Shown piece by piece: positions 5,136 through 57,950 of a stretch of 64,000 bases of DNA. The stretch comes from Candidatus Omnitrophota bacterium (GTDB lineage: Bacteria > Omnitrophota > Gorgyraeia > B26-G9). The stretch lies in assembly GCA_018817585.1 (NCBI GenBank), contig JAHITE010000007.1, positions 25,251 to 89,250 of the forward strand, read 5' to 3'. The notes below the pieces were generated by a model, which did no database searches, was not told where the DNA came from, and was given only the letters and a program-made list of their open reading frames with translations. The position numbers were made by a program, and so were the translations under genes. The first letter of the stretch is position 1; each line of letters begins with the position of its first letter.

Positions 5136-8100
5136 ATGCCGAAAAGAACAGATATAAAAAAAATATTAATTATTGGTTCTGGTCCGATTATTATTGGACA
5201 AGCTTGTGAATTTGATTATTCCGGAACTCAGGCTTGCAAGGCATTGCGTGAGGAAGGGTTTGAAGTTGTTTTGATTAATTCCAATCCAGCTACAATAATG
5301 ACTGATCCGGAAATAGCAAATGCTACTTATATCGAGCCGATTACTCCGGAAGTATTGGAGAAAATCATTGCCAAGGAGCGTCCCGACGCGCTTTTACCTA
5401 CTTTAGGGGGGCAGACTGCGCTTAATACAGCAATGAAAGCTGCTGAAATGGGTATTTTAGAAAAGTATAATGTGCGGATGATCGGAGCTAATACAACGGT
5501 TATCCGAAAAGCAGAAGATAGAAAATATTTTAAAGAAGCAATGCTGAAAATTGGGCTTGATTTACCAAGAAGTGCTTTGGCTTATAACATGCCGGAAGCA
5601 ATGGAGGCTTTAAAACAAATCGGGTTGCCGCTGATTATCCGTCCCAGTTTTACCATGGGGGGGACTGGCGGAGGGATCGCGCAAACTGAGGAGGAATTTG
5701 AAAAAATTTGTCAGTTAGGTTTGCGCAATAGTATGATTAATGAGATCTTGGTTGAAGAGTCAATCTACGGCTGGAAAGAATACGAGCTGGAGGTAATGCG
5801 TGATTCTAAGGACAATGTGGTTATTATTTGTTCAATTGAAAATTTTGATCCAATGGGTATTCATACAGGAGATTCTATAACCGTAGCGCCCGCGCAGACT
5901 TTGACTGATCAGGAATATCAAAAAATGCGCGATGCGGCTTTGGCGATTATCCGGGAAATCGGAGTTGAAACCGGTGGATCGAATATTCAGTTTGCGGTGA
6001 ATCCTAAAGATGGCAGAATGATTGTTGTTGAAATGAATCCGCGTGTTTCCCGCAGTTCTGCTTTAGCCAGTAAAGCTACGGGCTTTCCGATTGCCAAGTT
6101 CGCGGCGAAGTTAGCAGTAGGGTTTACGCTGGATGAAATTCAGAATGATATAACCAAAGAAACTCCGGCTTCCTTTGAACCGACAGTTGACTATTGTGTT
6201 GTGAAAATTCCCCGGTTCACTTTTGAAAAATTTCCCGAAGCGCAGGATATTCTCGGGATATCTATGAAGTCAGTCGGTGAAACAATGGCCATTGGCAGAA
6301 CGTTTAAAGAAGCTTTGCAAAAAGGTTTAAGAGGCTTGGAAATTGGACATATTGGATTTGATAATAAAAATGATTTTCGAGAGATTGAACAGGAAAAGCT
6401 ATTGCACCGACTTAAAGAACCTAATGCTTCGCGGATCTTTTATATAAAATATGCTTTTCAGAAGGGGATGAGTTCTGAAGAGATTTGTAAATTAACTGAT
6501 ATTGATCCGTGGTTTATTGATAATTTAAAGCAGATTGTTGAATTAGAAGAAGAGATAAAAAATCAGGGGAAAGATATTTTTCATATTGACGCAGGATTGC
6601 TGCGCAAGGCAAAGGAATATGGATTTGGCGATGAGCAGCTGGCAAAACTTTTAAATACAGATGAAGTGACTGTACGCAATCAAAGGAAAAAACTCGGGAT
6701 TATAGTAACCTATAAATTAGTTGATACTTGCGGTGCGGAATTTGAAGCCTATACGCCTTATTATTATTCAACTTATGAGCAGGAAGATGAAACCCGTATT
6801 TCAAATAAGAAAAAAATTATGATCTTAGGCGGCGGTCCTAATCGAATCGGGCAGGGAATAGAATTTGATTATTGTTGCTGTCATGCCTCCTTTGCTTTAA
6901 AAGAGCTGGGATTTGAAACAATAATGGTTAATTCAAATCCAGAGACTGTTTCTACTGATTATGATACTTCGGACAAACTTTATTTTGAGCCATTGACATT
7001 TGAAGATGTAATGAATATTGTTGACAGAGAAAAACCAGATGGAATTATTGTCCAATTTGGTGGGCAAACTCCATTAAATTTGGCAAGAAAACTTAAGAAT
7101 GCCGGAGCCCCGATAATTGGAACTTCTGTAGAGTCAATTGATCGCGCTGAAGATAGGGACAAATTTTCGCAATTAATTAAAGAATTGGGGATTAATCAGC
7201 CGCCGAATGGATCAGCTACATCAAGAGATCAGGCAATCGCCATTGCCAAGGAAATTGGATATCCGATATTGGTTCGACCTTCATATGTTTTAGGTGGTAG
7301 AGCGATGAGGATTGTTTATAATGAAAAAGATTTAACAAAATTCATGATTGAAGAAGCTGAAGCAATTGATATCTCAAGTGAAAAACCGATTTTGATTGAT
7401 AAGTTTTTAGAAGACGCGGTTGAAGTTGATGTTGATGCTTTATCTGATGGGCATACTACGATTATTGGCGGGATCATGGAACATATCGAAGAAGCCGGAG
7501 TGCATTCTGGAGATTCTGCATGTGTGCTGCCTCCGCATACTTTAAGTGACAAGATTCTGGATATTATTAGACATAATACTAAGCTATTATCAAAAAAATT
7601 AGAAGTAAAAGGACTTTTAAATATACAATTCGCGATAAAAAATAGCATTGTTTATGTGCTTGAAGTTAATCCTCGGGCATCACGCACTGCTCCTTTTGTA
7701 AGCAAGGCAACAGGAATTCCTCTAGCAAAAATTGCCGCAAAAATAATGGCAGGCAAAACACTAGATCAGTTAGGAATAAAGGATGAGAAAAAAATAAAAC
7801 ATGTTGCGGTAAAAGAATCAGTATTGCCTTTTTCTCGATTCTCCGGAGTAGATATAATCCTTGGGCCGGAGATGAAATCAACAGGCGAAGTAATGGGCAT
7901 AGACAAAACTTTTGGGATTGCTTTTTATAAGTCACAATTGGCCGCTGGGTCAGTGCTTCCGACAAAAGGCAAGATATTTATTAGTGTTAAAGCCAATGAT
8001 AAAAAATCTATAGTAGCTGTTGGGAAGAAACTGGTTAATTTAGGTTTTGAGATTATTGCGACAAAAGGAACGTATAATGTTTTAAACTCAAACAATATTC

Positions 8101-8375
8101 AAGCTACGGTTATTGATAAGATCAGTGATAAGATTAGTGATAATAATGTGCTTGATTTAATTAGACAGGGACAAATTAAGCTGATTATAAATACCCCGAC
8201 TGGACATAAAAGCCAGTCAGATATGAAGTCGATAAGAAACGCGGCAGTAATGCACGGTATTTCATGTATAACAACTATACAGGGAGCGCAGGCTGCCGTA
8301 AATGGAATAGAGGCAATACTGGAAAAAGATTTTTCTGTTACATCAATTCAGGAATTCATCAAGAATTCAGGATAA
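5136..8375 (+). CDS. carB: carbamoyl-phosphate synthase large subunit
   Basis: 1079 aa with two ATP-grasp halves, an oligomerisation domain and an MGS-like C-terminus. Confidence 0.95.
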
Positions 8376-8385
8376 AGAGGCTAGT

Positions 8386-9762
8386 ATGTGTGGAATATTT
8401 GGTATTGCTGGACATAAAGAAGCGGCTCGTTTAACCTATTTAGGTTTGTACGCGCTGCAGCACCGCGGAGAAGAAAGTGCTGGTATTGTCAGTTATGATC
8501 TAGGCAGAATAAATGCTCATCAGGGAATGGGCTTGGTTGAAGACGTTTTTGATGAAAGCGCGATCCGTTCTTTAAAAGGTCCAATAGCTGTTGGTCATGT
8601 TCGCTATTCAACAACTGGATCAAGCCTGGAACGAAATATACAGCCGTTTCTTGTAAATCATAAAAAAGGACATATTGCGATCGCGCATAATGGTAATTTG
8701 ACTAATACCAGCCATTTGCGGGAAACATTAGAAGAGCAGGGATCTATATTTCAGACAACAATGGATTCAGAAGCAATTGTTCATTTTGTCGCGCAATCAA
8801 AGGATCGGGATTATCGTAAAAGAGTAATCCATTCTTTATCTAATTTAGAGGGAGCATACTCATTAGTTATGCTGCTTGATGATGTTTTAGTTGGTGCGCG
8901 TGATCCACATGGTTTTAGGCCTTTATGTTTAGGGAAATTAAACGGGGCTTATGTGCTGGCCAGTGAAACTTGTGCTTTAGATTTGATTCAGGCTGAATAT
9001 ATCCGCGAAATTGAACCAGGCGAGATTGTTTTTATTCGGGATAAAAAATTGGAATCAATGAAACCATTTCCTGAACAAAAACACGCGTTCTGTATTTTTG
9101 AATACATATATTTTGCCAGACCGGATAGTAATATTTTTGGTAAGAATGTTTATCTCACGAGAAAGCGTTTGGGGGAAGAGATGGCAAAAGAATCACCAGC
9201 TGAATGTGATTTGGTTATGCCCATCCCCGATTCAGGTAATTCCGCGGCATTAGGGTTTGCTAAAAAATCAAAAATTCCTTATGAAGTAGGGATGATTAGA
9301 AATCATTATGTCGGTAGAACCTTTATCCAGCCTTCTCAGTTTATAAGAGATTTTCGCGTAAAAGTAAAACTCAATCCAATTAAAGATGTAATAAAAGGTA
9401 AGCGGTTGGCAATTATCGAAGATTCTATTGTTCGCGGGACAACAAGTAGAGCAAGAATAAAGACTATTCGTGAATCCGGAGCAGAAAAAATGCATATGCG
9501 AATCAGTTGTCCTCCGATTAAAGCGCCGTGTTTTTATGGAATTGATTTTCCCACAAAAAAAGAATTAATCGCCGCTAATTATACGGTGAAAGAAATAGAA
9601 AAATTTATGGGCTTAGACAGCTTAAAATATTTAAGCCAAGAAGGTTTATTAAAAGCAATGCTTTTGCCAGCATGTGAATTTTGCACCGCGTGCTTTGATG
9701 GTAATTATCCGACTAAAATCCCTAAGAAATTTTCCAAAAAAATGCTGGAAAAAAAGCGTTAA
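8386..9762 (+). CDS. purF: amidophosphoribosyltransferase
   Basis: MCGIFGI N-terminal nucleophile, PRTase domain, and C-terminal Fe-S cysteines (CEFCTACFDG). Confidence 0.9.
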   Translation: MCGIFGIAGHKEAARLTYLGLYALQHRGEESAGIVSYDLGRINAHQGMGLVEDVFDESAIRSLKGPIAVGHVRYSTTGSSLERNIQPFLVNHKKGHIAIAHNGNLTNTSHLRETLEEQGSIFQTTMDSEAIVHFVAQSKDRDYRKRVIHSLSNLEGAYSLVMLLDDVLVGARDPHGFRPLCLGKLNGAYVLASETCALDLIQAEYIREIEPGEIVFIRDKKLESMKPFPEQKHAFCIFEYIYFARPDSNIFGKNVYLTRKRLGEEMAKESPAECDLVMPIPDSGNSAALGFAKKSKIPYEVGMIRNHYVGRTFIQPSQFIRDFRVKVKLNPIKDVIKGKRLAIIEDSIVRGTTSRARIKTIRESGAEKMHMRISCPPIKAPCFYGIDFPTKKELIAANYTVKEIEKFMGLDSLKYLSQEGLLKAMLLPACEFCTACFDGNYPTKIPKKFSKKMLEKKR

Positions 9763-9906
9763 ACAGAATAGTTTATTTAGAAATTCTCAAAAGTGATGAC
9801 TTGTGGTAGGCTAATAGTAGCGCATAAATAAAGTGGATAGTGATATATTAAAGCAGATGAGTATAGTTAAATAAGCTTTTTGTGTAGTATCTTAAGAAAC
9901 GAGTAA

Positions 9907-11508
<1,602 letters not shown>

Positions 11509-14225: not shown

Positions 14226-14540
14226 TTGAAGAAAAAAATAATGTTTGTAGGTGTGTTTGCTTTGGTTCTGGGCGCAATTTGTATTTCTACATCTTTTGCT
14301 GCAATGCCGGATGCGAATAATGTTAAGGAATTTCATGAAGGAGCGACTGTGGGATGTACAGTTTGTCATACAGAAGGAAACTTTAAAGAACTTAACAGCT
14401 ATGGTAATGCATACAATGATGCTGGTAGAAATGTGGATGCAGTCAAAGCTATTGATGACGAAGATAGTGACGAAGATGGTGTTTCCAACTATGACGAAAT
14501 CAAAGCTGGTACTAATCCAGGTGATGCTACAAGCAAATAA
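14226..14540 (+). CDS. small secreted monoheme c-type-cytochrome-like protein with an acidic Ca-binding (thrombospondin type-3-like) C-terminus
   Basis: TTG start after RBS GGGGGAGG, a signal peptide, a single CxxCH (CTVCH), and a C-terminal DEDSDEDGVSNYDE run. Confidence 0.45.
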   Translation: MKKKIMFVGVFALVLGAICISTSFAAMPDANNVKEFHEGATVGCTVCHTEGNFKELNSYGNAYNDAGRNVDAVKAIDDEDSDEDGVSNYDEIKAGTNPGDATSK

Positions 14541-16257: not shown

Positions 16258-17517
16258 GTGAATAATAATGCAGGCTGTTCGGTATTAATCCTGGGTGGTG
16301 GAAGAGGTACCCGTCTTTTCCCTTTAACATTGGAAAGAAGTAAGCCGGCTATTGGATTTGCCGGTAAATATAGATTAATTGATATTCCTATTTCTAATTC
16401 AATAAATTCTGGCTATAATAAAATTTTTGTTTTAACTCAGTTTCTTTCAGCAAGTTTGCATGGACATCTTATGCAAACTTATCGTTTTGACAATTTCTCA
16501 AAAGGGTTTGTTGAAATCCTTTCCGCTGAGCAGTCGCATAAAAGTTCTGAATGGTTTCAGGGGACAGCTGATGCTGTTCGCTGTGTTTTAAGACATTTGC
16601 GCTATATGCCGGAAGAACATGTATTGATTTTATCCGGCGATCATCTTTACAAAATGGATTACAGAAAAATGCTAAATTACCATGTTCAGAAAAACGCGGA
16701 AGTAACTGTTTCTTCTATTTTTGTGGATGAAAGCGAAGCCTCGCGTATGGGCATTCTTGATGTATCTGCTTTCGGAAGACTGAATCGGGTAATTGAAAAA
16801 CCGGCTAATGTTAAAAAACTAAAAATTTCATCAAAATCAATTAAACAAGATGACGGGATGCATAAAGAGTATTGCGCGTCCATGGGGATATATTTATTTA
16901 ATAAAGATGTTTTATTTAATATTTTATCAACGACAAAATCAGCTGATTTTGGTAAACATATACTTCCTTTACTGGTTAAAAATAAAGCTAAAGTGTTTTC
17001 CTATGATTTTAATGGTTATTGGCGTGATATTGGTACAATAAAGAGCTATTATGATGCAAGTATGGATTTATTGAGCGATAAACCAGGCTTTGATTTGTTT
17101 GACGCTAATATGCCGTTGCTTACTCGAGCGCGGCTTTTACCTCCGAATAAAATAATTGACTCTAAAATAACAAGATCAATTATCTCGGAAGGTTGTTTAA
17201 TAAAAAAGGCTAGCATCGAAAATTCAATTATCGGATTGCGAAGTTATATTAAGGATAATGCGATAATTAAAAACTCTGTGATAATCGGTAATGATTATTA
17301 TAGTGATCCATTAAACAAAGATCATTCAACTTCCTTTATTGGTAAGGGCGTTATTTTGGAAAGAACAATTGTTGATAAGAATGTTACAATTTGTGATTTT
17401 ACCCAGATTACTGACAAAAGGAATCATAAAGATATGGATGGAGATCTCTATTATATTCGCGATGGGGTAACTATCGTAAGGCGGGGAGTTGTTATCCCTC
17501 CGCATTCAATAATATAG
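16258..17517 (+). CDS. glgC: glucose-1-phosphate adenylyltransferase
   Basis: LILGGGRGTRLFPLT...K...GTADAV N-terminal nucleotidyltransferase domain plus a C-terminal left-handed beta-helix region. Confidence 0.85.
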   Translation: MNNNAGCSVLILGGGRGTRLFPLTLERSKPAIGFAGKYRLIDIPISNSINSGYNKIFVLTQFLSASLHGHLMQTYRFDNFSKGFVEILSAEQSHKSSEWFQGTADAVRCVLRHLRYMPEEHVLILSGDHLYKMDYRKMLNYHVQKNAEVTVSSIFVDESEASRMGILDVSAFGRLNRVIEKPANVKKLKISSKSIKQDDGMHKEYCASMGIYLFNKDVLFNILSTTKSADFGKHILPLLVKNKAKVFSYDFNGYWRDIGTIKSYYDASMDLLSDKPGFDLFDANMPLLTRARLLPPNKIIDSKITRSIISEGCLIKKASIENSIIGLRSYIKDNAIIKNSVIIGNDYYSDPLNKDHSTSFIGKGVILERTIVDKNVTICDFTQITDKRNHKDMDGDLYYIRDGVTIVRRGVVIPPHSII

Positions 17518-17560: not shown

Positions 17561-17875
17561 ATGTTTGAAATTTTAGAAAAATTAGTTTTAGCGGGTGTGG
17601 GATTTGCTAGTTTAACTAAGGAAAAAGCAGAAAAAATAGTTGACGCGTTGATTGCTAAGGGGCAGGTTAAAGCCAAGGATAAAAAGGCGATGTTAAGTCG
17701 ATTGCTTAAGCATACGCAAAAACTAGATAAAGATATTGAAAATAAAATGAGACAGGTATCTTTAAATGTAGTAAAAAGTTCGCAAAAACAAATAGATGCT
17801 TTAAATCGGAAATTAGCGCAGTTAAATAAAGATATAAGCAGCGTAAAACAGAAAAGTGGCAAGAAGAAAAAATAG
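17561..17875 (+). CDS. phasin-family (PhaF/PhaI-like) granule-associated protein, copy 1
   Basis: LVLAGVGFASLTKEKAEKIVDALI resembles the phasin WLAGLGA motif. Coiled-coil body, strong RBS AAGGGGG. Confidence 0.5.
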   Translation: MFEILEKLVLAGVGFASLTKEKAEKIVDALIAKGQVKAKDKKAMLSRLLKHTQKLDKDIENKMRQVSLNVVKSSQKQIDALNRKLAQLNKDISSVKQKSGKKKK

Positions 17876-17907
17876 TTTGTGGGTAACTTACAATAAGGAG
17901 GATAATA

Positions 17908-18270
17908 ATGTTTGAATTGATTGAAAAAATTATACTCGCTGGTGTTGGCTTGGCAAATTTAACTAGAGAAAAAGCGGAAAGTCTTGTTGATGCTTTGATT
18001 AAAAAAGGGCAAATACAGGCAAAAGATAAAAAGGCAGTTTTAAGCCGGTTGTTAAAAAGCACAGAGCAATTAGATCGTGATCTTGAGAAAAAGATGAAAC
18101 AAGTATCTTTGAGTGTAGTGAAGAATTCCCAGAAGCAGATTGATGCTTTGAATAATAAATTAGCGCAGCTTGCTAAAGCTTTAGAATCAGAAAAGAAAAA
18201 AAGTAAAGTTGTTAAGGCTCCTTTGGCTGTAAAGAAAAAAGTAAAGGCTCAAGCAAAGAAAAAAGTCTAA
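17908..18270 (+). CDS. phasin-family protein, copy 2, with a lysine-rich histone-H1-like tail (KKKSKVVKAPLAVKKKVKAQAKKKV)
   Basis: About 70% identical paralogue of copy 1 plus a basic tail like PhaF. Its stop overlaps the next gene start (TAATG). Confidence 0.5.
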   Translation: MFELIEKIILAGVGLANLTREKAESLVDALIKKGQIQAKDKKAVLSRLLKSTEQLDRDLEKKMKQVSLSVVKNSQKQIDALNNKLAQLAKALESEKKKSKVVKAPLAVKKKVKAQAKKKV

Positions 18271-19958
18271 TGCCTTTTAGAATCAAAGCAATGGTCGGAG
18301 ATATTAACCGATTAAGAGTAATATTAGTTATTCTTTTTGAAGAAGGATTTGGCTTCCTTATTGAGCGAGTAAGGTTGGCCTATTTACTACCGTTTAAATT
18401 AAGATTGCTGAGAATGTTTCGGCGGTGTAAGCCAGTATGCAAATTGAATGAAAAGGTTGTTTCGCTACCTGAACGTCTTTGTAGAGTATTTGAACGATTG
18501 GGGCCTACGTATGTAAAATTTGGACAAGTTTTAAGTTTACGTTCAGATATTATCCCTCTGGAATATATTAATCAATTAGAGAATCTACAAACAAATGCCA
18601 ATACTTTTGCTTATGAAAAAGTAAAAGAAATTATTCTCGAAGAATTTGATAAAGACATTGGCCAAGTTTACAAAACATTTTCCGAAAAACCTTTTGCCGC
18701 GGCAAGTCTAGCTCAGGTGCATGCCGCAAAATTAGCTGATGGAACAGACGTTGCGGTTAAGGTTCAAAGGCCTGATATCAGAGGAATCATAGAAAATGAT
18801 ATTCATATTCTATTTTTTTTGGCCGCGCTTGTAGAAAAATATGTCAAAGAAATAATGTATATCCAGCCGGTACAATTGGTAAGAGATTTTTCAGAGTGGA
18901 CAATGAGAGAATTAGACTTTAGTATCGAAGCTGCTAATGGTGAGAGGTTCCGTCAAAATTTTTTAGATGATCAACGTTTTTATTTTCCTCAAATACACTG
19001 GGATTATTCCACAAAGAGAGTTCTGACAATGGAATTAATTAAGGGTATAAAACTGTCAGATGCCTCGGAAATTGTAAAATCAGGGGGTGATCCATATGTC
19101 TTGGCAATAAACGGCTTAGACTTAGGACTTAGACAGTTTTTTATCCATGGTTTTTTTCAGGCAGATCCCCATCCAGGAAATTTTTTAGTTTTAAAAGATA
19201 ATGTTCTATGTTTGCATGATTTTGGAATGGTGGGATATTTGGATAGGCATATGCGTGATACCCTAGCCGCTGTTTTTATGTCTTTTGTGGAAAAAAATGC
19301 AGAGTTAACTTCCCAAAAGATGCTTCATTTAGCGCCGAATTTTTCTCTACAAGCTGGGGAAGAATTTGCGCAAAGGGCAATGCCCATTTTAAGCACATGG
19401 TTTTATTCTAAAAAGCTGGAAAAAAGTTTTGCTAAGATGTTCTATCATCTTGTAATCGAAGGAGCAAAAAGCGGTTTATATTTTCCCCGAAACTTGGTAT
19501 TATGTTCTAGAGCACTATTAATAATGGAAGGAACTGGACTTAAATTGTGCCCGGAGTTTAAATTGTATGATGAGGTTGCTCCTTTGTTTGAAAATGTGAT
19601 AAAAGAAAAATTTAATCCAAAACTGGTATTAAAAGATATGGAAATGGGAATTATTGAATATTTGAATATTTTACAGCAATTACCAGAAAACACTTTAAAG
19701 CTTATTGAAAAAATAGAAAAAGGTCAAATTGATGTAAAAATTGATAAAAGTGAAATAATGGCAATTAAAGACGAAATGGAGAGAGTTAATAATATTCGGT
19801 TAATTTCAATAATTATTATCACTTTTCTTGTTTCAGCTGCTATTATATTAAGGCTTGAACAGCAGACTCTAATTTTTGGGTTTTCAGTGGCAAAGATCGA
19901 GCTTGTAGTCTCTTTTGTACTATCGGTTTGGTTGGCATTAATAATCAGAAAAAAATAA
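18270..19958 (+). CDS. ABC1/UbiB-family atypical kinase
   Basis: LGPTYVKFGQVLSLRSD, AAASLAQVH and HADPHPGN motifs, plus a C-terminal TM segment. Confidence 0.8.
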   Translation: MPFRIKAMVGDINRLRVILVILFEEGFGFLIERVRLAYLLPFKLRLLRMFRRCKPVCKLNEKVVSLPERLCRVFERLGPTYVKFGQVLSLRSDIIPLEYINQLENLQTNANTFAYEKVKEIILEEFDKDIGQVYKTFSEKPFAAASLAQVHAAKLADGTDVAVKVQRPDIRGIIENDIHILFFLAALVEKYVKEIMYIQPVQLVRDFSEWTMRELDFSIEAANGERFRQNFLDDQRFYFPQIHWDYSTKRVLTMELIKGIKLSDASEIVKSGGDPYVLAINGLDLGLRQFFIHGFFQADPHPGNFLVLKDNVLCLHDFGMVGYLDRHMRDTLAAVFMSFVEKNAELTSQKMLHLAPNFSLQAGEEFAQRAMPILSTWFYSKKLEKSFAKMFYHLVIEGAKSGLYFPRNLVLCSRALLIMEGTGLKLCPEFKLYDEVAPLFENVIKEKFNPKLVLKDMEMGIIEYLNILQQLPENTLKLIEKIEKGQIDVKIDKSEIMAIKDEMERVNNIRLISIIIITFLVSAAIILRLEQQTLIFGFSVAKIELVVSFVLSVWLALIIRKK

Positions 19959-19968
19959 AGGGGGGGAG

Positions 19969-20190
19969 ATGGAAAAAAAGATTTTAAAAAAAATTCCTCA
20001 GAAGGCAGTTAAAATATTTAAAATAGCTAATCGCAAAGGATATGGAGCGTTGTGTATAAATAATCTTACTGAAGGTTTAACTCCGGCACTAGCTTATATG
20101 CGGATGCTAAAGGCTGTTAAAAGAAGTGGTTTCGAACTGCCTGAAATTACTTCAGAACAAGTTAAAAAATGCGTTGTTTCTGAGATTTAA
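19969..20190 (+). CDS. hypothetical 73-aa basic protein
   Basis: Strong RBS (AAAGGGGGGGAG) directly upstream. No recognisable domain. Confidence 0.3.
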   Translation: MEKKILKKIPQKAVKIFKIANRKGYGALCINNLTEGLTPALAYMRMLKAVKRSGFELPEITSEQVKKCVVSEI

Positions 20191-20196
20191 TTTTCC

Positions 20197-20225
20197 TTGA
20201 TAAATAAGCTTTATTGTGCTAGTAT
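20197..20225 (+). promoter_or_regulatory. promoter TTGATA-17-TAGTAT; shares the 12-mer TTGTGCTAGTAT with the uvrA promoter
   Basis: Direct read. The track ORF start at 20216 falls inside this promoter, so I moved the CDS start to the ATG at 20300. Confidence 0.4.
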
Positions 20226-20299
20226 TGGGAAGAATTTCATCATTTTCAAAATTAAGTACATTCCTTGGGTTATTTTCTTTAATTTTAACAGAAGGTCAT

Positions 20300-20950
20300 A
20301 TGAATACACAATATAGAGCGATTGAGCGTATTGAGACAAATATGGAATCAATAGAAGTTGGTAGTTTGCGTTATTCTATTTTAAATTGCGCTAAGAATTT
20401 TAAAAGTTCCTGGCTTGAACTTGGACAGCATTTGGTTTCAGTATATAACGATAAATTATACAAAGAGTGGGGTTATCTTACATTTGAAGCTTATTGTTCC
20501 AAGGAAATCGGGATAAGAAAGCAAACTGGTTTTAAGCTTTTAAGATCGTATCACTTTCTTGAGCAAGAGGAACCCCAATACATTAAAAAAGAATATATCG
20601 ATTCCGCGGATGGTAAAAATATTCCCTCTTTCGAGGCAGTGCATACGCTTAGCCAGGTAAAGGCTAATAAAAATTTAGGCAATGATGATTATGAGAAAAT
20701 GAAACGGCATATATTTGAAGAAGGTAAGCCTGATAAAGAAGTAAAAGATGTTTATCAGTCTATGGTTAAGCAAGTTAAAGAAAACAGCCCGGAAGAAGAG
20801 CATAAGTTAAGAAGATTAAAATATTTACGTCGCGTTGTCGGCTCGTTAAATTCAATTAGAAAAGAGATACAGTTAAGTAAATTTCTTTCTGACGATATTC
20901 TTAAAGAATTAGATGTTATAATTATAAAAATTGAAGTTGAAATCGGATAA
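20300..20950 (+). CDS. hypothetical protein (216 aa from the ATG at 20300, RBS AGAAGG)
   Basis: Conserved-looking core W.ELGQHLVSVYNDKLYKEWGYLTFEAYCSKEIGIRKQTGFKLL and an acidic/basic C-terminus. I do not recognise the family. Confidence 0.4.
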   Translation: MNTQYRAIERIETNMESIEVGSLRYSILNCAKNFKSSWLELGQHLVSVYNDKLYKEWGYLTFEAYCSKEIGIRKQTGFKLLRSYHFLEQEEPQYIKKEYIDSADGKNIPSFEAVHTLSQVKANKNLGNDDYEKMKRHIFEEGKPDKEVKDVYQSMVKQVKENSPEEEHKLRRLKYLRRVVGSLNSIRKEIQLSKFLSDDILKELDVIIIKIEVEIG

Positions 20951-49081: not shown

Positions 49082-49624
49082 TTATTGCCTTATTTGTTTT
49101 GCCGGAGGAGCTGGCGGCGGAATATATACTGGTTGTTGTCTGAGTGTTTGCAATAGCTGCTGAGTCTGTATTTGCATCTGCGTGTTTTGGTAAAACTGAT
49201 AAGTGCGGATAATATCCATGGTTCTTCTGTTTTCTTCGGCTTTGGTCGCCGCGTTTTGCAAAGACTCCTGGTTTTCCAGTAAAGTTATTTCCTCATCGTC
49301 AAATACTCCGAGATTAAGCAGTTCCTGGAAAATTTTATCCGGATTATCTTCAGTGCATAAATATAATTCTGAGTCAACAAAAATCAAGACCCATTCTTCT
49401 GGTTTGCCGGAAAGAGAATGGCCTTTTTTAAAACTATATTTCCATAATTCTACAGGATAATTTTTTGGCGTAGAGCCAGCCTGGATTTTTTCCAAAGGAT
49501 TTCCCCAAAGTTCGATTACGGCTTTGGGCGTAAGACTATTTTTAAGCATAGGGATTCTGGCTGTAGTTTTGCAGCCGCCAAGGAACAAAGCACTGATCAT
49601 AAAGATAAGAAGTAATTTTTTCAT
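49082..49624 (-). CDS. hypothetical lipoprotein
   Basis: I prefer the internal start MKKLLLIFMISALFLGGC (lipobox) at 49624, which leaves only a few nt between the -10 and the start (near-leaderless). Confidence 0.4.
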   Translation of the reverse strand: MKKLLLIFMISALFLGGCKTTARIPMLKNSLTPKAVIELWGNPLEKIQAGSTPKNYPVELWKYSFKKGHSLSGKPEEWVLIFVDSELYLCTEDNPDKIFQELLNLGVFDDEEITLLENQESLQNAATKAEENRRTMDIIRTYQFYQNTQMQIQTQQLLQTLRQQPVYIPPPAPPAKQIRQ

Positions 49625-49745
49625 ATATACTGAATCTAGCATAAAAAAATGCAATTGTCAAAAAAAGCAAAAACATATTACACAATTGCGCGGTATCTGC
49701 TTCAGGTTTGCAGGCGAAGCAGTGAAAAATAGAGTCGCGAAAGGT

Positions 49746-53937: not shown

Positions 53938-56451
53938 ATGATTATGAATAAAAATCCTGATAAAACTTTTAATAAAATCCTGAAGGCAGGTTTAGTTTTA
54001 ATCCTGGGGATGATGTTTTTAAATAATAGCATTGTGTTCGCGGAAGATAATGAATTTAAAGATCTTTTTTTATCCAAGCAGGTATTTAAAGATGGGTTTT
54101 ATGACAGCGCGATCCGACAGCTGAAGCAATTTCAAAAAGACTATCCCTATAGTAAAAGAATGTTTGAGGTGGAATTTCTGATTGCCCGCTGCTATTTAAA
54201 ACAAGGGCATTTATACAAAGCTTCTTCGGCTTTTGAAGAACTGTTTAAAAAAAGCAAGGAATCAGCGCCGGATAAAACCGATGAGATTATGTTCTGGAGC
54301 GGCGAGACATATTTTAAAGGCAAAGACTATAAGCGGGCGCGGGTGTTTTATCAGAAAATAGTCAATGAATTTCCTCAGTCGCGTTTTACCAGCTATGCCA
54401 GCTATAACAGCGCCTGGGCATCATATGAATCAAAAGATTTTTCGCGGGCGAAAAAAGAGTTTGAATATTTTATAAATAAATTTCCCAATCATGAATATGT
54501 TCCGGAAGCGCAGTTTAAAATCGGAGAAATTTTATTTGAATCAAATCAGCAGGCTCAGGCTCAGACTTTTCTCTTAGTCTATTTAAAAAAACATCCCAAG
54601 CCGGAAAATCTGGCCAGAGTGCATTGTCTGCTGGGTGAGATTTTTTACCGCAGGGGCGATTATCCCAAAGCAATCGAGCATTATAAGGTTTCTTTGGAAA
54701 ATGGCCCGCACTCAAATTACGCGCCTTATGCCCGCTATGGAATCGGCTGGGCTTATTTTGACGCTGCGGATTATCCGGCAAGCTTAAATGCTTTTATGGA
54801 TTTTCTCGAGTTTTTTTCCGGGCATAAATTAGCGGAAATAGTTTATCTCCAGGCCGGTGAATCTAACCGGAAATTAGAGCAATATGGTAAAGCTTTACAG
54901 CTTTATGAAGAAATGATAAAAAAATTTCCCAACGGCAAATGGGCAGCCAGGGCTTTTTTCGCCAAGGCCAAAACGCTTAATGATTTAAATCAAATCAATG
55001 AGGCGATAACCTGTTATCAAGATATGCTCAAACAATTTCCCCAGAATCAGCTGCTTCCGGAGGTGCATTATAACTTAGGGATTTTGTATTTAAATAAACT
55101 AAAGGATAAAAACAGCGCTTTAAAAGAATTAAAGCTGGTTGTCCAGACATCCCCTGAGCCGAAAATTAAAGTTAATGCTTTGAGTAAAATCGCGGATATT
55201 TATTTAGAGTCCGGAGATGTTGAGCTGGCGCAAAAAGAATATGATAAGATCTTAATTGAATTCGCGGACAGTTCGTACGCGGATTATGCCCAATTCCAAT
55301 TAGGGATCAGTTTTTTAAAGCAAGGCCGATTTGACGCGGCAATATTAGCGTTTAATAATGTGATAAATAGCTTTCCGCGAAGCGCTTCGCTGGCTGAGGC
55401 GAGATTTCAATTGGGAATGGCTTATTTTAAAAAAAGGGATTATGAAGCCGCGATTAAAGAACTTAATTTAACAATTGAAAAGCATCCGGATCGGGATTTT
55501 AAAGAACAAGCTTTGTTTTACATCGCGACTTCATTTTATAATCTGAAAAAATTTGATGAAGCGCTGAACGTCTACAATCAGCTTATAAAAACCGCTAAGG
55601 ACAAAGAACTGCTTTGGCGCTGTCTGCATCAGCGCGCCTGGGCATATTATAACAGCGGCAAAGAAAAAGAAGCAATAAACGCGTTTACGGAATTTATTAC
55701 CAAGTGCCCGGAAGCACCGATTATCAGTGATACGCAGTTTTGGCTGGGACAGTATTATCTGCAGAGCGGACAATGTAATAAGGCCAGAGGATACTTTAAT
55801 CAAATTATTCAAAGCAGCGATGATCAGAATGAATTAAAAGACGATGCGATGTTTCAACTTGGGGTTTGCTTTTTAAAATCAGATAACAAAGATCTTGCCT
55901 TGCGGCAATTCATAATGCTTAAACAGGATTTTCCGAACAGTGATTTTGTTCCTGAAGCGGTATTAAAAATAGTCGAGATCTTAAATGAACAGGGAAAAAT
56001 TGAAAGAGCTGAATCAGAGCTAAAACAATTGATCAAAAACCATCCTGATTCAATGTATGAAAATATTGCATATAAAAAACTGGCGGATATCGATCAAAAA
56101 GAAGGTGAATATAAAAAAGCGATTTCTTATTTGGAAAAAGCTTTGCAGTCTAAACAGGCAGTTGCCGAATTTAAAGTTCAGCTGCAGTTTCAAATCGCGA
56201 TGATCAGAGAAGAACTGAAAGATTATGATCAGGCAATGGATGACTATTTAAAAGTGATCTATCTGTATCCGGATCTGGATCAATGGGTCGCTCAAGCCTA
56301 TCTTAAAATCGGCGGATTGTTTGAACTGCAGAAAAATTATGAAAAAGCGCTGGATGCTTACAACAAAATTATAATCGACAATTTACCAAAACAGGAAATC
56401 GCTAAAGAGAGGCTGGAATGGATCAAGCTAAATGTAAACACAGCTTATTAA
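53938..56451 (+). CDS. large secreted tetratricopeptide-repeat protein
   Basis: Signal/TM N-terminus, then more than 15 TPR-like repeats (A..Y..A.....G.Y..A...F.....FP pattern) across 837 aa. Confidence 0.7.
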   Translation: MIMNKNPDKTFNKILKAGLVLILGMMFLNNSIVFAEDNEFKDLFLSKQVFKDGFYDSAIRQLKQFQKDYPYSKRMFEVEFLIARCYLKQGHLYKASSAFEELFKKSKESAPDKTDEIMFWSGETYFKGKDYKRARVFYQKIVNEFPQSRFTSYASYNSAWASYESKDFSRAKKEFEYFINKFPNHEYVPEAQFKIGEILFESNQQAQAQTFLLVYLKKHPKPENLARVHCLLGEIFYRRGDYPKAIEHYKVSLENGPHSNYAPYARYGIGWAYFDAADYPASLNAFMDFLEFFSGHKLAEIVYLQAGESNRKLEQYGKALQLYEEMIKKFPNGKWAARAFFAKAKTLNDLNQINEAITCYQDMLKQFPQNQLLPEVHYNLGILYLNKLKDKNSALKELKLVVQTSPEPKIKVNALSKIADIYLESGDVELAQKEYDKILIEFADSSYADYAQFQLGISFLKQGRFDAAILAFNNVINSFPRSASLAEARFQLGMAYFKKRDYEAAIKELNLTIEKHPDRDFKEQALFYIATSFYNLKKFDEALNVYNQLIKTAKDKELLWRCLHQRAWAYYNSGKEKEAINAFTEFITKCPEAPIISDTQFWLGQYYLQSGQCNKARGYFNQIIQSSDDQNELKDDAMFQLGVCFLKSDNKDLALRQFIMLKQDFPNSDFVPEAVLKIVEILNEQGKIERAESELKQLIKNHPDSMYENIAYKKLADIDQKEGEYKKAISYLEKALQSKQAVAEFKVQLQFQIAMIREELKDYDQAMDDYLKVIYLYPDLDQWVAQAYLKIGGLFELQKNYEKALDAYNKIIIDNLPKQEIAKERLEWIKLNVNTAY

Positions 56452-57950
56452 TTATCTTTATTAGCTGCTTATTCTGGGTAAACCCAGGCCATGCTGAGGA
56501 ATTGGAAAAGCCTTTAATCAAACTGCCGCAGGTAAATATTATTGGTCAGCAAGACACGGATTATCCCTTTGAAAACAGCGGGATTATTTCTGCTGATCTG
56601 GTGGCCCAGTCAAGCTTAAATGAATCTCCCAAGCAGGATGAATCCCAGGGTTTTCTTACCAGCTCCTATGGAAGTTTTGATTCTAAATTATTTGAGGTAG
56701 AACATTCGCTAAAGTCAGAAATGTTCTACTATAATGCCTATATCCAAATCAAAGGCAGTGACGGGGATAGAGATAATTCCCAGTTTATCGCGTATAAACC
56801 TAACCTGAGCGTAGGTATTCCGTTTTATCAGGAGAATGAACTGTTGTTTAATTTTGATTATTTTGATAAAAAAATGGGCCTGCCTGGCAGAACAACTCTG
56901 CCGAGCTTAAACGCCGAAAGAAGAAACAGCGATATGGTTTCATCTTTCAGCTTGATCCACAAACAGGATGATAGCAGCTTTAAATTTACGCCCTATTACG
57001 ACCTGTCGATCTTTAATGATGATCTGGTCCGGGAGGATTTTAAAAACAAACTATATGGTTTGAAATTAGAACTGGCTAATGAAGCGCTGATTTTGGATAT
57101 CAATGCCTATCAGAATCGGCTGGTAAACCATTATAAAGCAGGCGCTGGGAGTGCGGACATTAAAACAAATTCAATTGATTTAAATGACCAATGGAGAGCT
57201 GTTTTGGGAATTAATCTTTTTGCCCAGGAAGAGTTTGGGCAAAGACAGTCTCCGTTTGTTGAACTGGTTTATGAGGAAAATGAGGATTGTCTGCATAAAT
57301 TCACCATCAGCCGCAAGTATGCTCCGATTCAGTTTAATCAAACCTATTTGGAAGATAATTATATTGAAGTCAATCCCGAGCTAATGCGTCCGGTGCGCAG
57401 TTCTGAGATTGCTTATAATCTGGATAAACACATCAGCACACAATGGCGGGCCAATATTTTAGTCTATTATCGTCAGTCTAAAGATTACTGGTTTTTAACC
57501 GATAATGATAATGACGGGTTTTATGCTCCCTTGGCAATTGAGCAGGCTAATCTTAGCGGAATAAATCTGTCCACAGAATATAATTGGAGTGAAGAATTTA
57601 ATTATTTTTTAAGTTTAGATATCCGAAAAATAAGAAGCAAGGATTCGGATTATGAGTTTGTTCCCTTTGAGCCAAAACAAAAAATATCAGTGGGCCTGAC
57701 CTATCAAATGACGGAAAAAACCAAGATTGATTTTGTCGGTGATTACTTTGGCCGGAGATACTATTCCGGCAATGCCAAAGAGAGCTCAAGCGCCTATTTT
57801 CTTTTAGGCTCAAAGCTTACATACAACCGGAAAGATTCCTTGACTTTTTTTGCTTTAATTGATAATTTATTAAATGATCACTACGAAATAGTTAGAGGAT
57901 ACCCTAGTCAGAGCAGAAGTATATTGTCTGGAGTAACGCTCAGATTTTAA
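56418..57950 (+). CDS. outer-membrane beta-barrel protein with a TonB-dependent-receptor-like C-terminus
   Basis: Signal peptide, alternating amphipathic beta-strands, and a C-terminus ...LNDHYEIVRGYPSQSRSILSGVTLRF ending in F. 510 aa, so short for a full TonB-dependent receptor. Confidence 0.45.
   Translation: MDQAKCKHSLLIIFISCLFWVNPGHAEELEKPLIKLPQVNIIGQQDTDYPFENSGIISADLVAQSSLNESPKQDESQGFLTSSYGSFDSKLFEVEHSLKSEMFYYNAYIQIKGSDGDRDNSQFIAYKPNLSVGIPFYQENELLFNFDYFDKKMGLPGRTTLPSLNAERRNSDMVSSFSLIHKQDDSSFKFTPYYDLSIFNDDLVREDFKNKLYGLKLELANEALILDINAYQNRLVNHYKAGAGSADIKTNSIDLNDQWRAVLGINLFAQEEFGQRQSPFVELVYEENEDCLHKFTISRKYAPIQFNQTYLEDNYIEVNPELMRPVRSSEIAYNLDKHISTQWRANILVYYRQSKDYWFLTDNDNDGFYAPLAIEQANLSGINLSTEYNWSEEFNYFLSLDIRKIRSKDSDYEFVPFEPKQKISVGLTYQMTEKTKIDFVGDYFGRRYYSGNAKESSSAYFLLGSKLTYNRKDSLTFFALIDNLLNDHYEIVRGYPSQSRSILSGVTLRF

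What the first reader, a model, noticed from the sequence alone, without database searches (positions are those of the whole stretch)
17561..18270. Tandem phasin-like paralogues after glgC, one with a histone-like lysine tail, in a window with glycogen but no PHA genes
Two roughly 70% identical genes with a phasin/PhaF-like N-terminus (VLAGVGFASLT...) follow glgC. Copy 2 carries a KKKSKVVKAPLAVKKKVKAQAKKKV tail like the DNA-binding tail of PhaF. No PHA synthase is nearby. The neighbours are glycogen genes (glgC here, GH57 and malQ at 28.6-32.6 kb). They may organise a different storage granule (glycogen?) or act as nucleoid-tethering proteins.
Basis: partly seen in the sequence, partly recalled or inferred. 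Interest (0 to 1): 0.5.

Follow-up and report, generated by a model that had tools for sequence, protein, structure and literature searches.

The report
Phasin-like gene pair coupled to ABC1 kinase
Two small helical proteins related to the PhaF/PhaI bioplastic-granule "phasins" are real, but across many bacterial phyla their conserved partner is the ABC1/UbiB-type membrane ATPase gene that starts at their stop codon. That points to a lipid-handling role, not one in glycogen or bioplastic storage.

Summary
ORFs 17561-17875 (104 aa) and 17908-18270 (120 aa) are 73% identical paralogues under strong purifying selection. The second has a 28-residue lysine-rich tail. They follow glgC, and the window has no PHA genes.

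They are divergent members of the PhaF/PhaI phasin family (PF05597). Each scores below the Pfam cutoff on its own. Their cross-phylum orthologues pass it, and the family profile matches Pseudomonas PhaF/PhaI at 98.5% probability.

The stop codon of copy 2 overlaps the start of a 562-aa ABC1/UbiB-family gene.
- Outside Omnitrophota, 56 of 69 homologous loci from about a dozen phyla have an ABC1 gene directly downstream on the same strand, usually 0-15 bp away.
- Of 78 metagenome loci chosen by ABC1 similarity alone, about 40% carry a phasin-like gene next to it. No other neighbour recurs comparably.
- The glgC adjacency is confined to close Omnitrophota relatives.
- In Pseudomonas, phaF/phaI lie beside ubiE-ubiJ-ubiB, and in P. 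fragi this holds without any phaC nearby.

Best reading: coiled-coil amphipathic partners of a membrane ABC1 ATPase that handles hydrophobic lipids. This is inferred from gene context, not shown. The glycogen-granule idea is not supported, and nucleoid tethering by the tail is untested.

The parts
17561..17875 (+). Phasin-like paralogue 1 (104 aa), with a short basic end (SSVKQKSGKKKK). It has a GGGGG-type ribosome-binding site upstream and lies 43 bp after the glgC stop.
   Evidence: ORF. PF05597 19.6 bits (cutoff 28.8), TIGR01837 30.9 bits, NF047773 31.0 bits (cutoff 35). 73% identical to copy 2. dN/dS 0.03-0.04 against orthologues.
17908..18270 (+). Phasin-like paralogue 2 (120 aa). The AF2 model has helix 3-13, a Gly-rich turn, helix 20-32 and one long amphipathic helix 38-103 with a heptad pattern.
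   Evidence: ORF. 100% identical to the NCBI MAG protein KKD05_00650, Candidatus Omnitrophica. AF2 pLDDT 78.8 (earlier model). Hydrophobic moment 0.45-0.58 over residues 43-90. Residues invariant across phyla: G14, T19, E21, K22, A23, E24.
18184..18267 (+). Lysine-rich disordered tail of copy 2 (residues 93-120; 12 K/R of 28).
   Evidence: pLDDT is below 50 from residue 104. Every downstream copy in Omnitrophota carries a 19-29 residue tail with 10-13 K/R, while upstream copies have short tails. Most homologues in other phyla lack a long tail.
18270..19958 (+). ABC1/UbiB-family atypical kinase-like ATPase (562 aa). Its start codon overlaps the stop of copy 2. It has two C-terminal transmembrane helices at about residues 510-530 and 538-558.
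   Evidence: PF03109 255 bits. TIGR01982 UbiB 361.8 bits, below the 487.55 cutoff. 29% identical to E. coli UbiB over 475 aa, with the KFGQ, AAAS/QVH, VAVKVQRP, DPHPGN and DFG motifs present. Transmembrane segments.
16258..17517 (+). glgC (glucose-1-phosphate adenylyltransferase). This is a syntenic upstream neighbour only, not part of the conserved module.
   Evidence: PF00483 + PF25247. The adjacency is limited to Omnitrophota loci L001-L016 and is absent in L010 and in all other phyla. No terminator-like site lies between glgC and copy 1, so co-transcription cannot be excluded.

Best explanation
The two genes encode divergent PhaF/PhaI-type (PF05597) helical proteins. Each has a small N-terminal helix-turn-helix carrying an invariant G-x-G...T-x-E-K-A-E motif, followed by a long amphipathic coiled-coil helix. 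They act together with the ABC1/UbiB-family ATPase encoded immediately downstream, which is anchored in the membrane by two C-terminal helices.

Shown: homology to the PhaF/PhaI N-terminal domain; the start-stop overlap with the ABC1 gene; and a reciprocal, cross-phylum conservation of the phasin-like/ABC1 gene pair that no other neighbour shares.

Inferred: the proteins oligomerise through the coiled coil, possibly as a heteromer of the two paralogues. They may act as an amphipathic adaptor or carrier that binds a hydrophobic surface or lipid (isoprenoid quinone, neutral lipid or similar) which the ABC1 ATPase extracts from or delivers to the membrane. This would be analogous to UbiJ/UbiK working with UbiB. 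The lysine-rich tail, which is specific to Omnitrophota, would hold the complex on an anionic surface such as acidic phospholipid or DNA. They are not dedicated PHA or glycogen granule proteins.
For: 1. Context when loci are chosen by the phasin-like gene. Of 69 non-Omnitrophota loci from about a dozen phyla, 56 have an ABC1 gene directly downstream on the same strand. Three of the other 13 are cut by a contig end. In 37 of 53 measurable cases the gap is 15 bp or less, or the genes overlap.
2. Clustering of all neighbours shows that only these two families recur (50 and 43 loci; the next family has 10).
3. Context when loci are chosen by ABC1. Of 78 informative metagenome loci, 27 have the phasin-like gene within 500 bp upstream on the same strand, 3 have it directly downstream and 2 have it nearby. 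The next most common neighbour occurs in 6 loci.
4. Phasin-linked ABC1s cluster in the ABC1 tree: 29 of 49 outside the block nearest canonical UbiB, against 1 of 26 inside it.
5. In the window the genes overlap (TAATG), the same layout as E. coli ubiJ-ubiB, which overlap by 4 bp.
6. Lipid-related neighbours recur: patatin-like phospholipases and TetR regulators.
7. In P. aeruginosa, phaF and phaI lie beside ubiE-ubiJ-ubiB. In P. fragi, phaF stays there with no phaC within 10 kb.
8. Eight of 36 members give weak hits to BMFP/UbiK (PF04380). hhalign against E. coli UbiK gives 62.7% over 33 columns.
9. No PhaC or PhaZ was found in the window or in any of the other fetched loci searched (165 loci, about 1.3 Mb).
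10. The long helix is amphipathic and the ABC1 protein has transmembrane helices.
Against: Gene adjacency is not function. In 6 of 12 distinct Omnitrophota loci (L001/L014, L004, L010, L011, L013, L016) the phasin-like genes persist without an adjacent ABC1. About 60% of ABC1 loci lack a phasin-like neighbour. Homologues in Bacillota and Armatimonadota sit upstream of cooC-CODH-ACS genes instead. The UbiK similarity is weak and UbiJ shows none. No natural fusion of a phasin-like domain to ABC1 was seen among the top hits. The cargo is unknown, and the biochemical role of the ABC1 family is itself unsettled. The Pseudomonas adjacency is divergent rather than operonic and counts as one lineage.
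Confidence: 0.55

Rival explanations
1. They are classical phasins. A PHA synthase is encoded elsewhere in this Omnitrophota genome, and the two proteins coat PHA granules, with the basic tail tethering granules to the nucleoid as PhaF does.
For: The family is homologous to PhaF/PhaI. The architecture of phasin domain plus basic tail parallels PhaF (PMC5658603). Databases name the relatives 'phasin family protein'.
Against: No PHA gene lies in the 64-kb window or in any of the other fetched loci searched (165 loci). The conserved neighbour is ABC1, not phaC. Carriers include contigs labelled Parcubacteria or Saccharibacteria, groups that (from general knowledge) are not known to make PHA. P. 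fragi keeps phaF without a nearby phaC. The whole genome could not be checked.
Confidence: 0.12
2. They are substrates or regulatory subunits of the ABC1 'kinase'. The invariant Thr19 in the LT(R/K)EKAE motif would be phosphorylated, switching oligomerisation or binding, rather than the proteins carrying lipid themselves.
For: The same gene-pair evidence applies. T19 and the EKAE motif are invariant across phyla. From general knowledge, plastoglobule ABC1K kinases have been reported to phosphorylate granule proteins.
Against: From general knowledge, protein-kinase activity of UbiB-family members is disputed and ATPase activity is better supported. T19 sits at the N-terminal cap of helix 20-32 in the model, so it may be structural. 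No data bear on phosphorylation.
Confidence: 0.13
3. They are nucleoid-associated, histone-like or general stress proteins that act independently of ABC1. The neighbourhood would reflect only co-expression.
For: The lysine-rich disordered tail is exceptional for this genome and is retained in every downstream copy in Omnitrophota, including loci that lack ABC1.
Against: Most homologues in other phyla lack a long tail, so the tail cannot be the family's core function. Tight coupling to ABC1 across phyla is not explained. A polybasic tail binds acidic membranes as readily as DNA.
Confidence: 0.1
4. They organise or regulate glycogen granules and are co-transcribed with glgC.
For: glgC lies 43 bp upstream with no terminator-like site between. 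The adjacency holds in 11 of 12 distinct Omnitrophota loci.
Against: The adjacency is part of a longer syntenic block that includes unrelated genes (rluA-like, uppP). It is missing in L010 and in all 69 loci from other phyla. Glycogen is hydrophilic, which is a poor match for an amphipathic phasin-type helix. GH57 and malQ lie 10 kb away among housekeeping genes.
Confidence: 0.04

Closest known systems
PhaF / PhaI phasins of Pseudomonas (Pfam PF05597, TIGR01837)
   Same: The family is homologous over the whole roughly 100-residue N-terminal domain: the LAGLG motif, an amphipathic helix and a C-terminal leucine-zipper segment (hhalign 98.5%). Copy 2 adds a basic C-terminal tail in the same position as the DNA-binding tail of PhaF. 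Tandem paralogues occur in both, like phaF-phaI. A TetR regulator is adjacent in some lineages, like phaD. An ABC1/UbiB gene lies close by in both.
   Different: The window proteins score below the family cutoffs. They lack the 'hP(S/T)R' turn before the zipper. They carry a subfamily-specific LT(R/K)EKAE motif that PhaF lacks. The tail is 28 residues without AAKP repeats. No PHA synthase is nearby. The conserved operon partner is ABC1.
UbiJ / UbiK accessory factors with UbiB (E. coli ubiquinone pathway)
   Same: A small helical or lipid-binding accessory gene sits directly upstream of a UbiB-family gene and overlaps it (ubiJ-ubiB overlap 4 bp; copy 2-ABC1 overlap 1 bp). UbiK is a roughly 96-aa coiled-coil protein. 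Some family members weakly hit its Pfam family BMFP.
   Different: There is no detectable homology to UbiJ and only marginal similarity to UbiK (62.7%, 33 columns). The window ABC1 is not an equivalog of UbiB. No ubiE or ubiJ was found in any of the fetched loci searched. The host lineages are mostly anaerobes that, from general knowledge, are not expected to make ubiquinone.
Plastoglobule / cyanoglobule ABC1K kinases with structural coat proteins (fibrillins)
   Same: ABC1-family proteins work on a lipid body that is coated by small structural amphipathic proteins (general knowledge; PMC12223511 read).
   Different: Fibrillins are unrelated in sequence to PF05597. The cyanoglobule paper treats phasin only as a marker of separate PHB granules. 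No lipid body is known in Omnitrophota.
PhaM (Ralstonia) and MLDS/TadA (Rhodococcus) granule or lipid-droplet proteins with lysine-rich DNA-binding tails
   Same: An amphipathic body plus a short lysine-rich C-terminal tail that tethers an inclusion to the nucleoid. This comparison is recalled from general knowledge and was not tested here.
   Different: No sequence relationship was tested or claimed. Here the binding target of the tail is unknown.

Membership tests
PF05597 / TIGR01837 phasin (PhaF/PhaI N-terminal domain family) | Score at or above the curated HMM cutoff | tested here: not met
   Copy 1 scores 19.6 bits and copy 2 scores 17.7 bits against a cutoff of 28.8. TIGR01837 gives about 31 bits against 94.7. 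Cross-phylum orthologues do pass PF05597 (37-50 bits), and 34 of 36 hit it at E<=1e-3.
PF05597 / TIGR01837 phasin (PhaF/PhaI N-terminal domain family) | Profile-level homology to authentic PhaF/PhaI over the full domain | tested here: met
   hhalign of A2 against the PhaF/PhaI alignment A4 gives 98.5%, E 2.3e-15, 98 columns. The Omnitrophota-only alignment A1 gives 84.9%, E 6.5e-6.
PF05597 / TIGR01837 phasin (PhaF/PhaI N-terminal domain family) | Genomic association with PHA synthase or depolymerase genes | tested here: not met
   None in the 64-kb window and none in the other fetched loci searched (165 loci). The rest of the genome was not available.
PF05597 / TIGR01837 phasin (PhaF/PhaI N-terminal domain family) | Binding to PHA granules | not testable with these tools
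   Needs localisation or binding experiments.
PhaF-type histone-like DNA-binding tail | Long C-terminal domain of about eight AAKP-like repeats (PMC5658603) | tested here: not met
   The tail is 28 residues with 12 K/R and a single KAP. No repeat unit is present.
PhaF-type histone-like DNA-binding tail | Non-specific DNA binding | not testable with these tools
   Needs EMSA or localisation experiments.
BMFP / UbiK (PF04380) | HMM match above cutoff, or profile homology to E. coli UbiK | tested here: inconclusive
   The window copies give no hit. Eight of 36 relatives hit below the cutoff (for example L024, 27.8 bits against 37.2). hhalign against UbiK gives 62.7% over 33 columns.
UbiB equivalog (TIGR01982), for the downstream partner gene | Score above the equivalog cutoff, and ubiE/ubiJ context | tested here: not met
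   361.8 bits against a cutoff of 487.55. No UbiE or UbiJ homologue was found in the window or the fetched loci searched.
ABC1 atypical kinase-like domain (PF03109), for the downstream partner gene | Domain match with conserved nucleotide-binding and catalytic motifs | tested here: met
   255 bits. The KFGQ, QVH, VAVKVQRP, DPHPGN and DFG motifs align with E. coli UbiB.

The most novel reading that the evidence does not exclude
The small PF05597-type protein and the ABC1/UbiB-family ATPase form an ancient two-component lipid-handling module found across many bacterial phyla. It would be the counterpart, in bacteria that lack ubiquinone, of UbiJ/UbiK-UbiB and of coat-protein/ABC1K pairs on plastoglobules. 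On this reading the Pseudomonas PHA phasins PhaF and PhaI are a derived offshoot of the module, still sitting next to ubiB. The phasin-like protein would then be the missing physical partner, or substrate, that makes the function of bacterial ABC1 proteins experimentally tractable.
Probability: 0.3. Interest if true: 0.75.

Novelty: new variant of a known kind. Interest (0 to 1): 0.55.

Why it matters
ABC1/UbiB-family proteins occur in all domains of life and are linked to human CoQ-deficiency disease and to plant stress tolerance. Their molecular job is still debated, with lipid extraction, kinase activity and, most recently, decarboxylation all proposed. Outside ubiquinone producers, no partner or substrate for them is known to me or was found in the literature searched. 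A small, conserved, translationally coupled partner gene gives a concrete handle for co-purification, complex modelling, ATPase assays and lipidomics. It also cautions against the automatic 'phasin / PHA synthesis regulator' label. Many genes named this way in anaerobic and candidate phyla probably have nothing to do with PHA, so PHA-storage potential inferred from that label in metagenome studies may be overstated.

Tried and rejected
- Foldseek of the AF2 model against the PDB gave nothing below E = 2. The fold is mostly one long helix, so this is uninformative.
- A profile search of PDB sequences found no relative.
- hhalign against E. coli UbiJ showed no similarity. Against DUF6781, which precedes another ABC1 clade, there was also none.
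- tblastn with E. coli and P. aeruginosa UbiE and UbiJ against the window and the fetched loci gave no hits. The ABC1 loci that lack a phasin-like gene are therefore not canonical ubiE-ubiJ-ubiB operons.
- The promoter and terminator scan was no better than shuffled sequence, so operon boundaries with glgC are unresolved.
- Literature searches for phasin together with ABC1, UbiB, AarF or COG3937, and for phaI/phaF together with ubiE/ubiB, found no paper that links the two families. Searches on PHA in Omnitrophota were uninformative.
- A cluster-member look-up for cultured hosts returned only MAG or metagenome sources.
- Weak Pfam hits to DUF6847/DIP1984, CtsR_C and Band_3 were rejected as coiled-coil noise.

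Full report
**Observation.** They share 66 of 90 residues (73%, E 1e-46). At the nucleotide level they are 71% identical, and synonymous sites are saturated. Each copy compared with its orthologue in related genomes has dN/dS of 0.02-0.05. They are therefore old duplicates, and both are under purifying selection. Copy 2 is 100% identical to an NCBI MAG protein, KKD05_00650 of Candidatus Omnitrophica. A public gene call on another contig finds the same 104- and 120-aa genes. Copy 2 ends in a 28-residue tail with 12 K/R. Only 1 of 17,003 25-residue windows in the other proteins of the window is as basic, so the tail is not just a by-product of the 36.6% GC content.

**The rest of the window.** glgC is directly upstream. 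A GH57/DUF3536 gene and malQ lie at 28.6-32.6 kb. Pfam annotation of the 46 proteins scanned in the window shows housekeeping genes: thiamine, pyrimidine and CTP synthesis, hrcA-grpE-dnaK-dnaJ, uvrA, ExbB/TonB and pilus/T2SS-like genes. No PhaC, PhaE, PhaR or PhaZ is present. tblastn with P. aeruginosa PhaC1, PhaC2 and PhaZ finds nothing.

**Family.** On their own, the two proteins score below every curated cutoff:
- PF05597: 19.6 and 17.7 bits against a cutoff of 28.8.
- TIGR01837: about 31 bits against 94.7.
- NF047773: 31.0 and 29.6 bits against 35.

The word-indexed search found only Omnitrophota relatives, several of them in tandem pairs. A profile scan of species-representative genomes retrieved 80 loci. 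An exhaustive profile search found 1,032 cluster representatives at E<=1e-3.

The cross-phylum alignment A2 shows a sharply conserved N-terminus, K-x-x-L-A-G-L-G-x-x-S-L-T-(R/K)-E-K-A-E...G-E, with G14, T19, E21, K22, A23 and E24 invariant. In most phyla a C-terminal 'h-P-(S/T)-(R/K)-x-(D/E)...L...LE' zipper follows. The Omnitrophota proteins have lost the four-residue turn before that zipper. Of the 36 members, 34 hit PF05597 and all 36 hit TIGR01837 and NF047773. Non-Omnitrophota members pass the Pfam cutoff (37-50 bits).

I retrieved authentic Pseudomonas PhaF/PhaI and aligned them (A4). The family profile matches them at 98.5% probability (E 2.3e-15, 98 columns). The Omnitrophota-only profile gives 84.9%. 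The proteins are therefore divergent homologues of the PhaF/PhaI N-terminal domain. Public sources label their relatives 'phasin family protein' or 'polyhydroxyalkanoate synthesis regulator phasin'.

**Anatomy.** AF2 with a 72-sequence alignment (pLDDT 78.8) predicts helix 3-13, a Gly-rich turn, helix 20-32 and a single long helix 38-103. The tail is disordered (an earlier model is). Residues 1-18 are hydrophobic. The long helix has a hydrophobic moment of 0.45-0.58 and a 3-4 spacing of L, I, V and M that fits a coiled coil, which can be read directly from the sequence. Elsewhere, fused proteins carry two copies of the N-terminal module before one zipper, which is consistent with the module working in pairs. 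No solved structure is related by sequence or fold.

**The neighbour that matters.** The stop codon of copy 2 overlaps the ATG of a 562-aa ABC1/UbiB-family gene (TAATG). That gene scores 255 bits on PF03109. It falls below the UbiB equivalog cutoff (361.8 against 487.55 bits). It is 29% identical to E. coli UbiB with the signature motifs intact, and it has two C-terminal transmembrane helices.

*Loci chosen by the phasin-like gene.* Among the 69 loci from outside Omnitrophota, 56 have an ABC1 gene immediately downstream on the same strand. The record titles name Ignavibacteriales, Acidobacteriota, Neomarinimicrobiota, Aminicenantes, many Planctomycetota/Phycisphaerae, Rikenellaceae/Porphyromonadaceae, Syntrophaceae/Thermodesulfobacteriota, Lentisphaerae, TA06, Parcubacteria-labelled MAGs and one 'archaeon'. 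Three of the remaining 13 loci are truncated. In 37 of 53 measurable pairs the gap is 15 bp or less, or the genes overlap. All-against-all clustering of neighbours shows that only these two families recur: 50 and 43 loci, against 10 for the next.

*Loci chosen by ABC1.* As a reverse test I scanned metagenomes with an ABC1 alignment. Of 78 informative loci, 27 carry a phasin-like gene within 500 bp upstream, 3 carry one directly downstream and 2 have one nearby. That is about 40%, and the next most frequent neighbour occurs in 6 loci. In a neighbour-joining tree the phasin-linked ABC1s fill a large region: 29 of 49 ABC1-ascertained leaves there are linked. The block nearest E. coli and Pseudomonas UbiB has 1 of 26.

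*Other neighbours.* A TetR regulator sits directly upstream in several lineages. Patatin-like phospholipases flank the pair in others. Both are compatible with a lipid context.

**glgC.** The glgC adjacency is seen in 11 of 12 distinct Omnitrophota loci. There it is part of a longer collinear block (PAS-HD, rluA-like, uppP, glgC ... 73-aa ORF, 244-aa ORF, Na/Pi-PhoU). It is absent from L010 and from every locus of another phylum. Within Omnitrophota the ABC1 gene is present in the window, L002/L012, L006-L009 and L015. It is missing in L001/L014, L004, L010, L011, L013 and L016, where the phasin-like genes remain. This is a real caveat for an obligatory partnership. The downstream copy always carries the long basic tail (19-29 residues) and the upstream copy a short one. 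The tandem arrangement is retained in two clades.

**Pseudomonas.** The archetype itself sits next to ubiB. In P. aeruginosa the order is phaC1-phaZ-phaC2-phaD(TetR), then phaF, phaI and a PF09650 gene, then a divergent ubiE-ubiJ(SCP2)-ubiB(ABC1). In P. fragi, phaF and the PF09650 gene are still beside ubiE-ubiJ-ubiB, but there is no phaC within 10 kb. This is one lineage and the orientation is divergent, so it is suggestive only.

**UbiK.** Some relatives hit the UbiK family BMFP below its cutoff. E. coli UbiK aligns weakly, at 62.7% over 33 columns. UbiJ does not align at all. The E. coli ubiJ-ubiB overlap of 4 bp has the same layout as copy 2-ABC1.

**Interpretation.** The best-supported reading is that these are PF05597-type coiled-coil amphipathic proteins that work with the membrane ABC1 ATPase. 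The homology and the gene linkage are shown. The oligomerisation, the hydrophobic cargo, and the binding of the tail to acidic membrane or DNA are inferred. The inference rests on what phasins do (they coat hydrophobic surfaces) and on what UbiB-family proteins are thought to do (ATP-driven handling of isoprenoid lipids; see bioRxiv 10.64898/2026.03.05.709815). I put this at about 0.55.

The rivals are:
- classical PHA phasins, with phaC elsewhere in the genome (0.12);
- substrate or regulator of the ABC1 'kinase' through the invariant Thr19 (0.13);
- an ABC1-independent nucleoid protein (0.10);
- a glycogen-granule organiser (0.04).

**Novelty.** Full-text searches found no paper that links phasin-family proteins with ABC1/UbiB. 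The only co-mention uses phasin as a marker for PHB granules that are distinct from ABC1K-containing cyanoglobules. The proteins themselves are new, divergent members of a known family. The non-PHA, ABC1-coupled context looks like an undescribed variant. It also implies that many database 'phasins' in anaerobic and candidate phyla are misnamed by function.

Noticed in passing
window 14226-14540 (+): A 104-aa ORF with a signal-peptide-like N-terminus, one CxxCH haem-binding motif (CTVCH) and an acidic DEDSDEDG stretch. It has no Pfam hit at 1e-5. A 104-aa gene occupies the same position in L001 and L004.
   Followed up: partly
window 19969-20190 and 20216-20950 (+): A 73-aa and a 244-aa protein with no significant Pfam match. 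They are conserved in the same order downstream of the phasin-like/ABC1 genes in most Omnitrophota loci (p73 in 11 and p244 in 9 of 12 distinct loci), whether or not ABC1 is present.
   Followed up: partly
L036, L061, L074, L075, L080 (and L060): In MAGs from Bacillota and Armatimonadota the phasin-like gene sits just upstream of cooC-CODH-ACS (acetyl-CoA synthase) genes instead of ABC1. In L060 it sits next to CdhD. This is a second recurring context for the family.
   Followed up: partly
L168 (Pseudomonas fragi) 8081-10657: phaF and a PF09650 granule-protein gene are retained beside ubiE-ubiJ-ubiB, with no PHA synthase gene within 10 kb. In P. aeruginosa (L169) the phaC1-phaZ-phaC2-phaD genes lie on the other side of phaF.
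   Followed up: partly
L017-L019, L037, L038, L094, L140: Patatin-like phospholipase genes recur directly beside ABC1 or the phasin-like/ABC1 pair. A TetR regulator lies immediately upstream of the pair in L024, L069 and L081, and close by in others.
   Followed up: partly
L122 2262-2963; also L144, L151, L152: A different ABC1 clade is preceded by a DUF6781 (PF20572) gene that ends a few bases before the ABC1 start. It is not homologous to the phasin-like family by hhalign. It may be an analogous small partner.
   Followed up: partly
P0056, P0057, P0063, P0082: Single proteins carry two copies of the N-terminal LAGxG...T-x-E module followed by one C-terminal zipper. This is a fused counterpart of the tandem gene pair.
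   Followed up: no
window 56418-57950 (+) and 49082-49654 (-): A 510-aa ORF between a large TPR protein and exbB/tonB-like genes, and a 190-aa ORF next to a HEAT-repeat protein. Neither has a Pfam match.
   Followed up: no
window 1-47000: Every ORF of 150 aa or more in the first 47 kb is on the + strand, apart from one probably spurious antisense ORF. Shared strand therefore says nothing about operon membership here.
   Followed up: no
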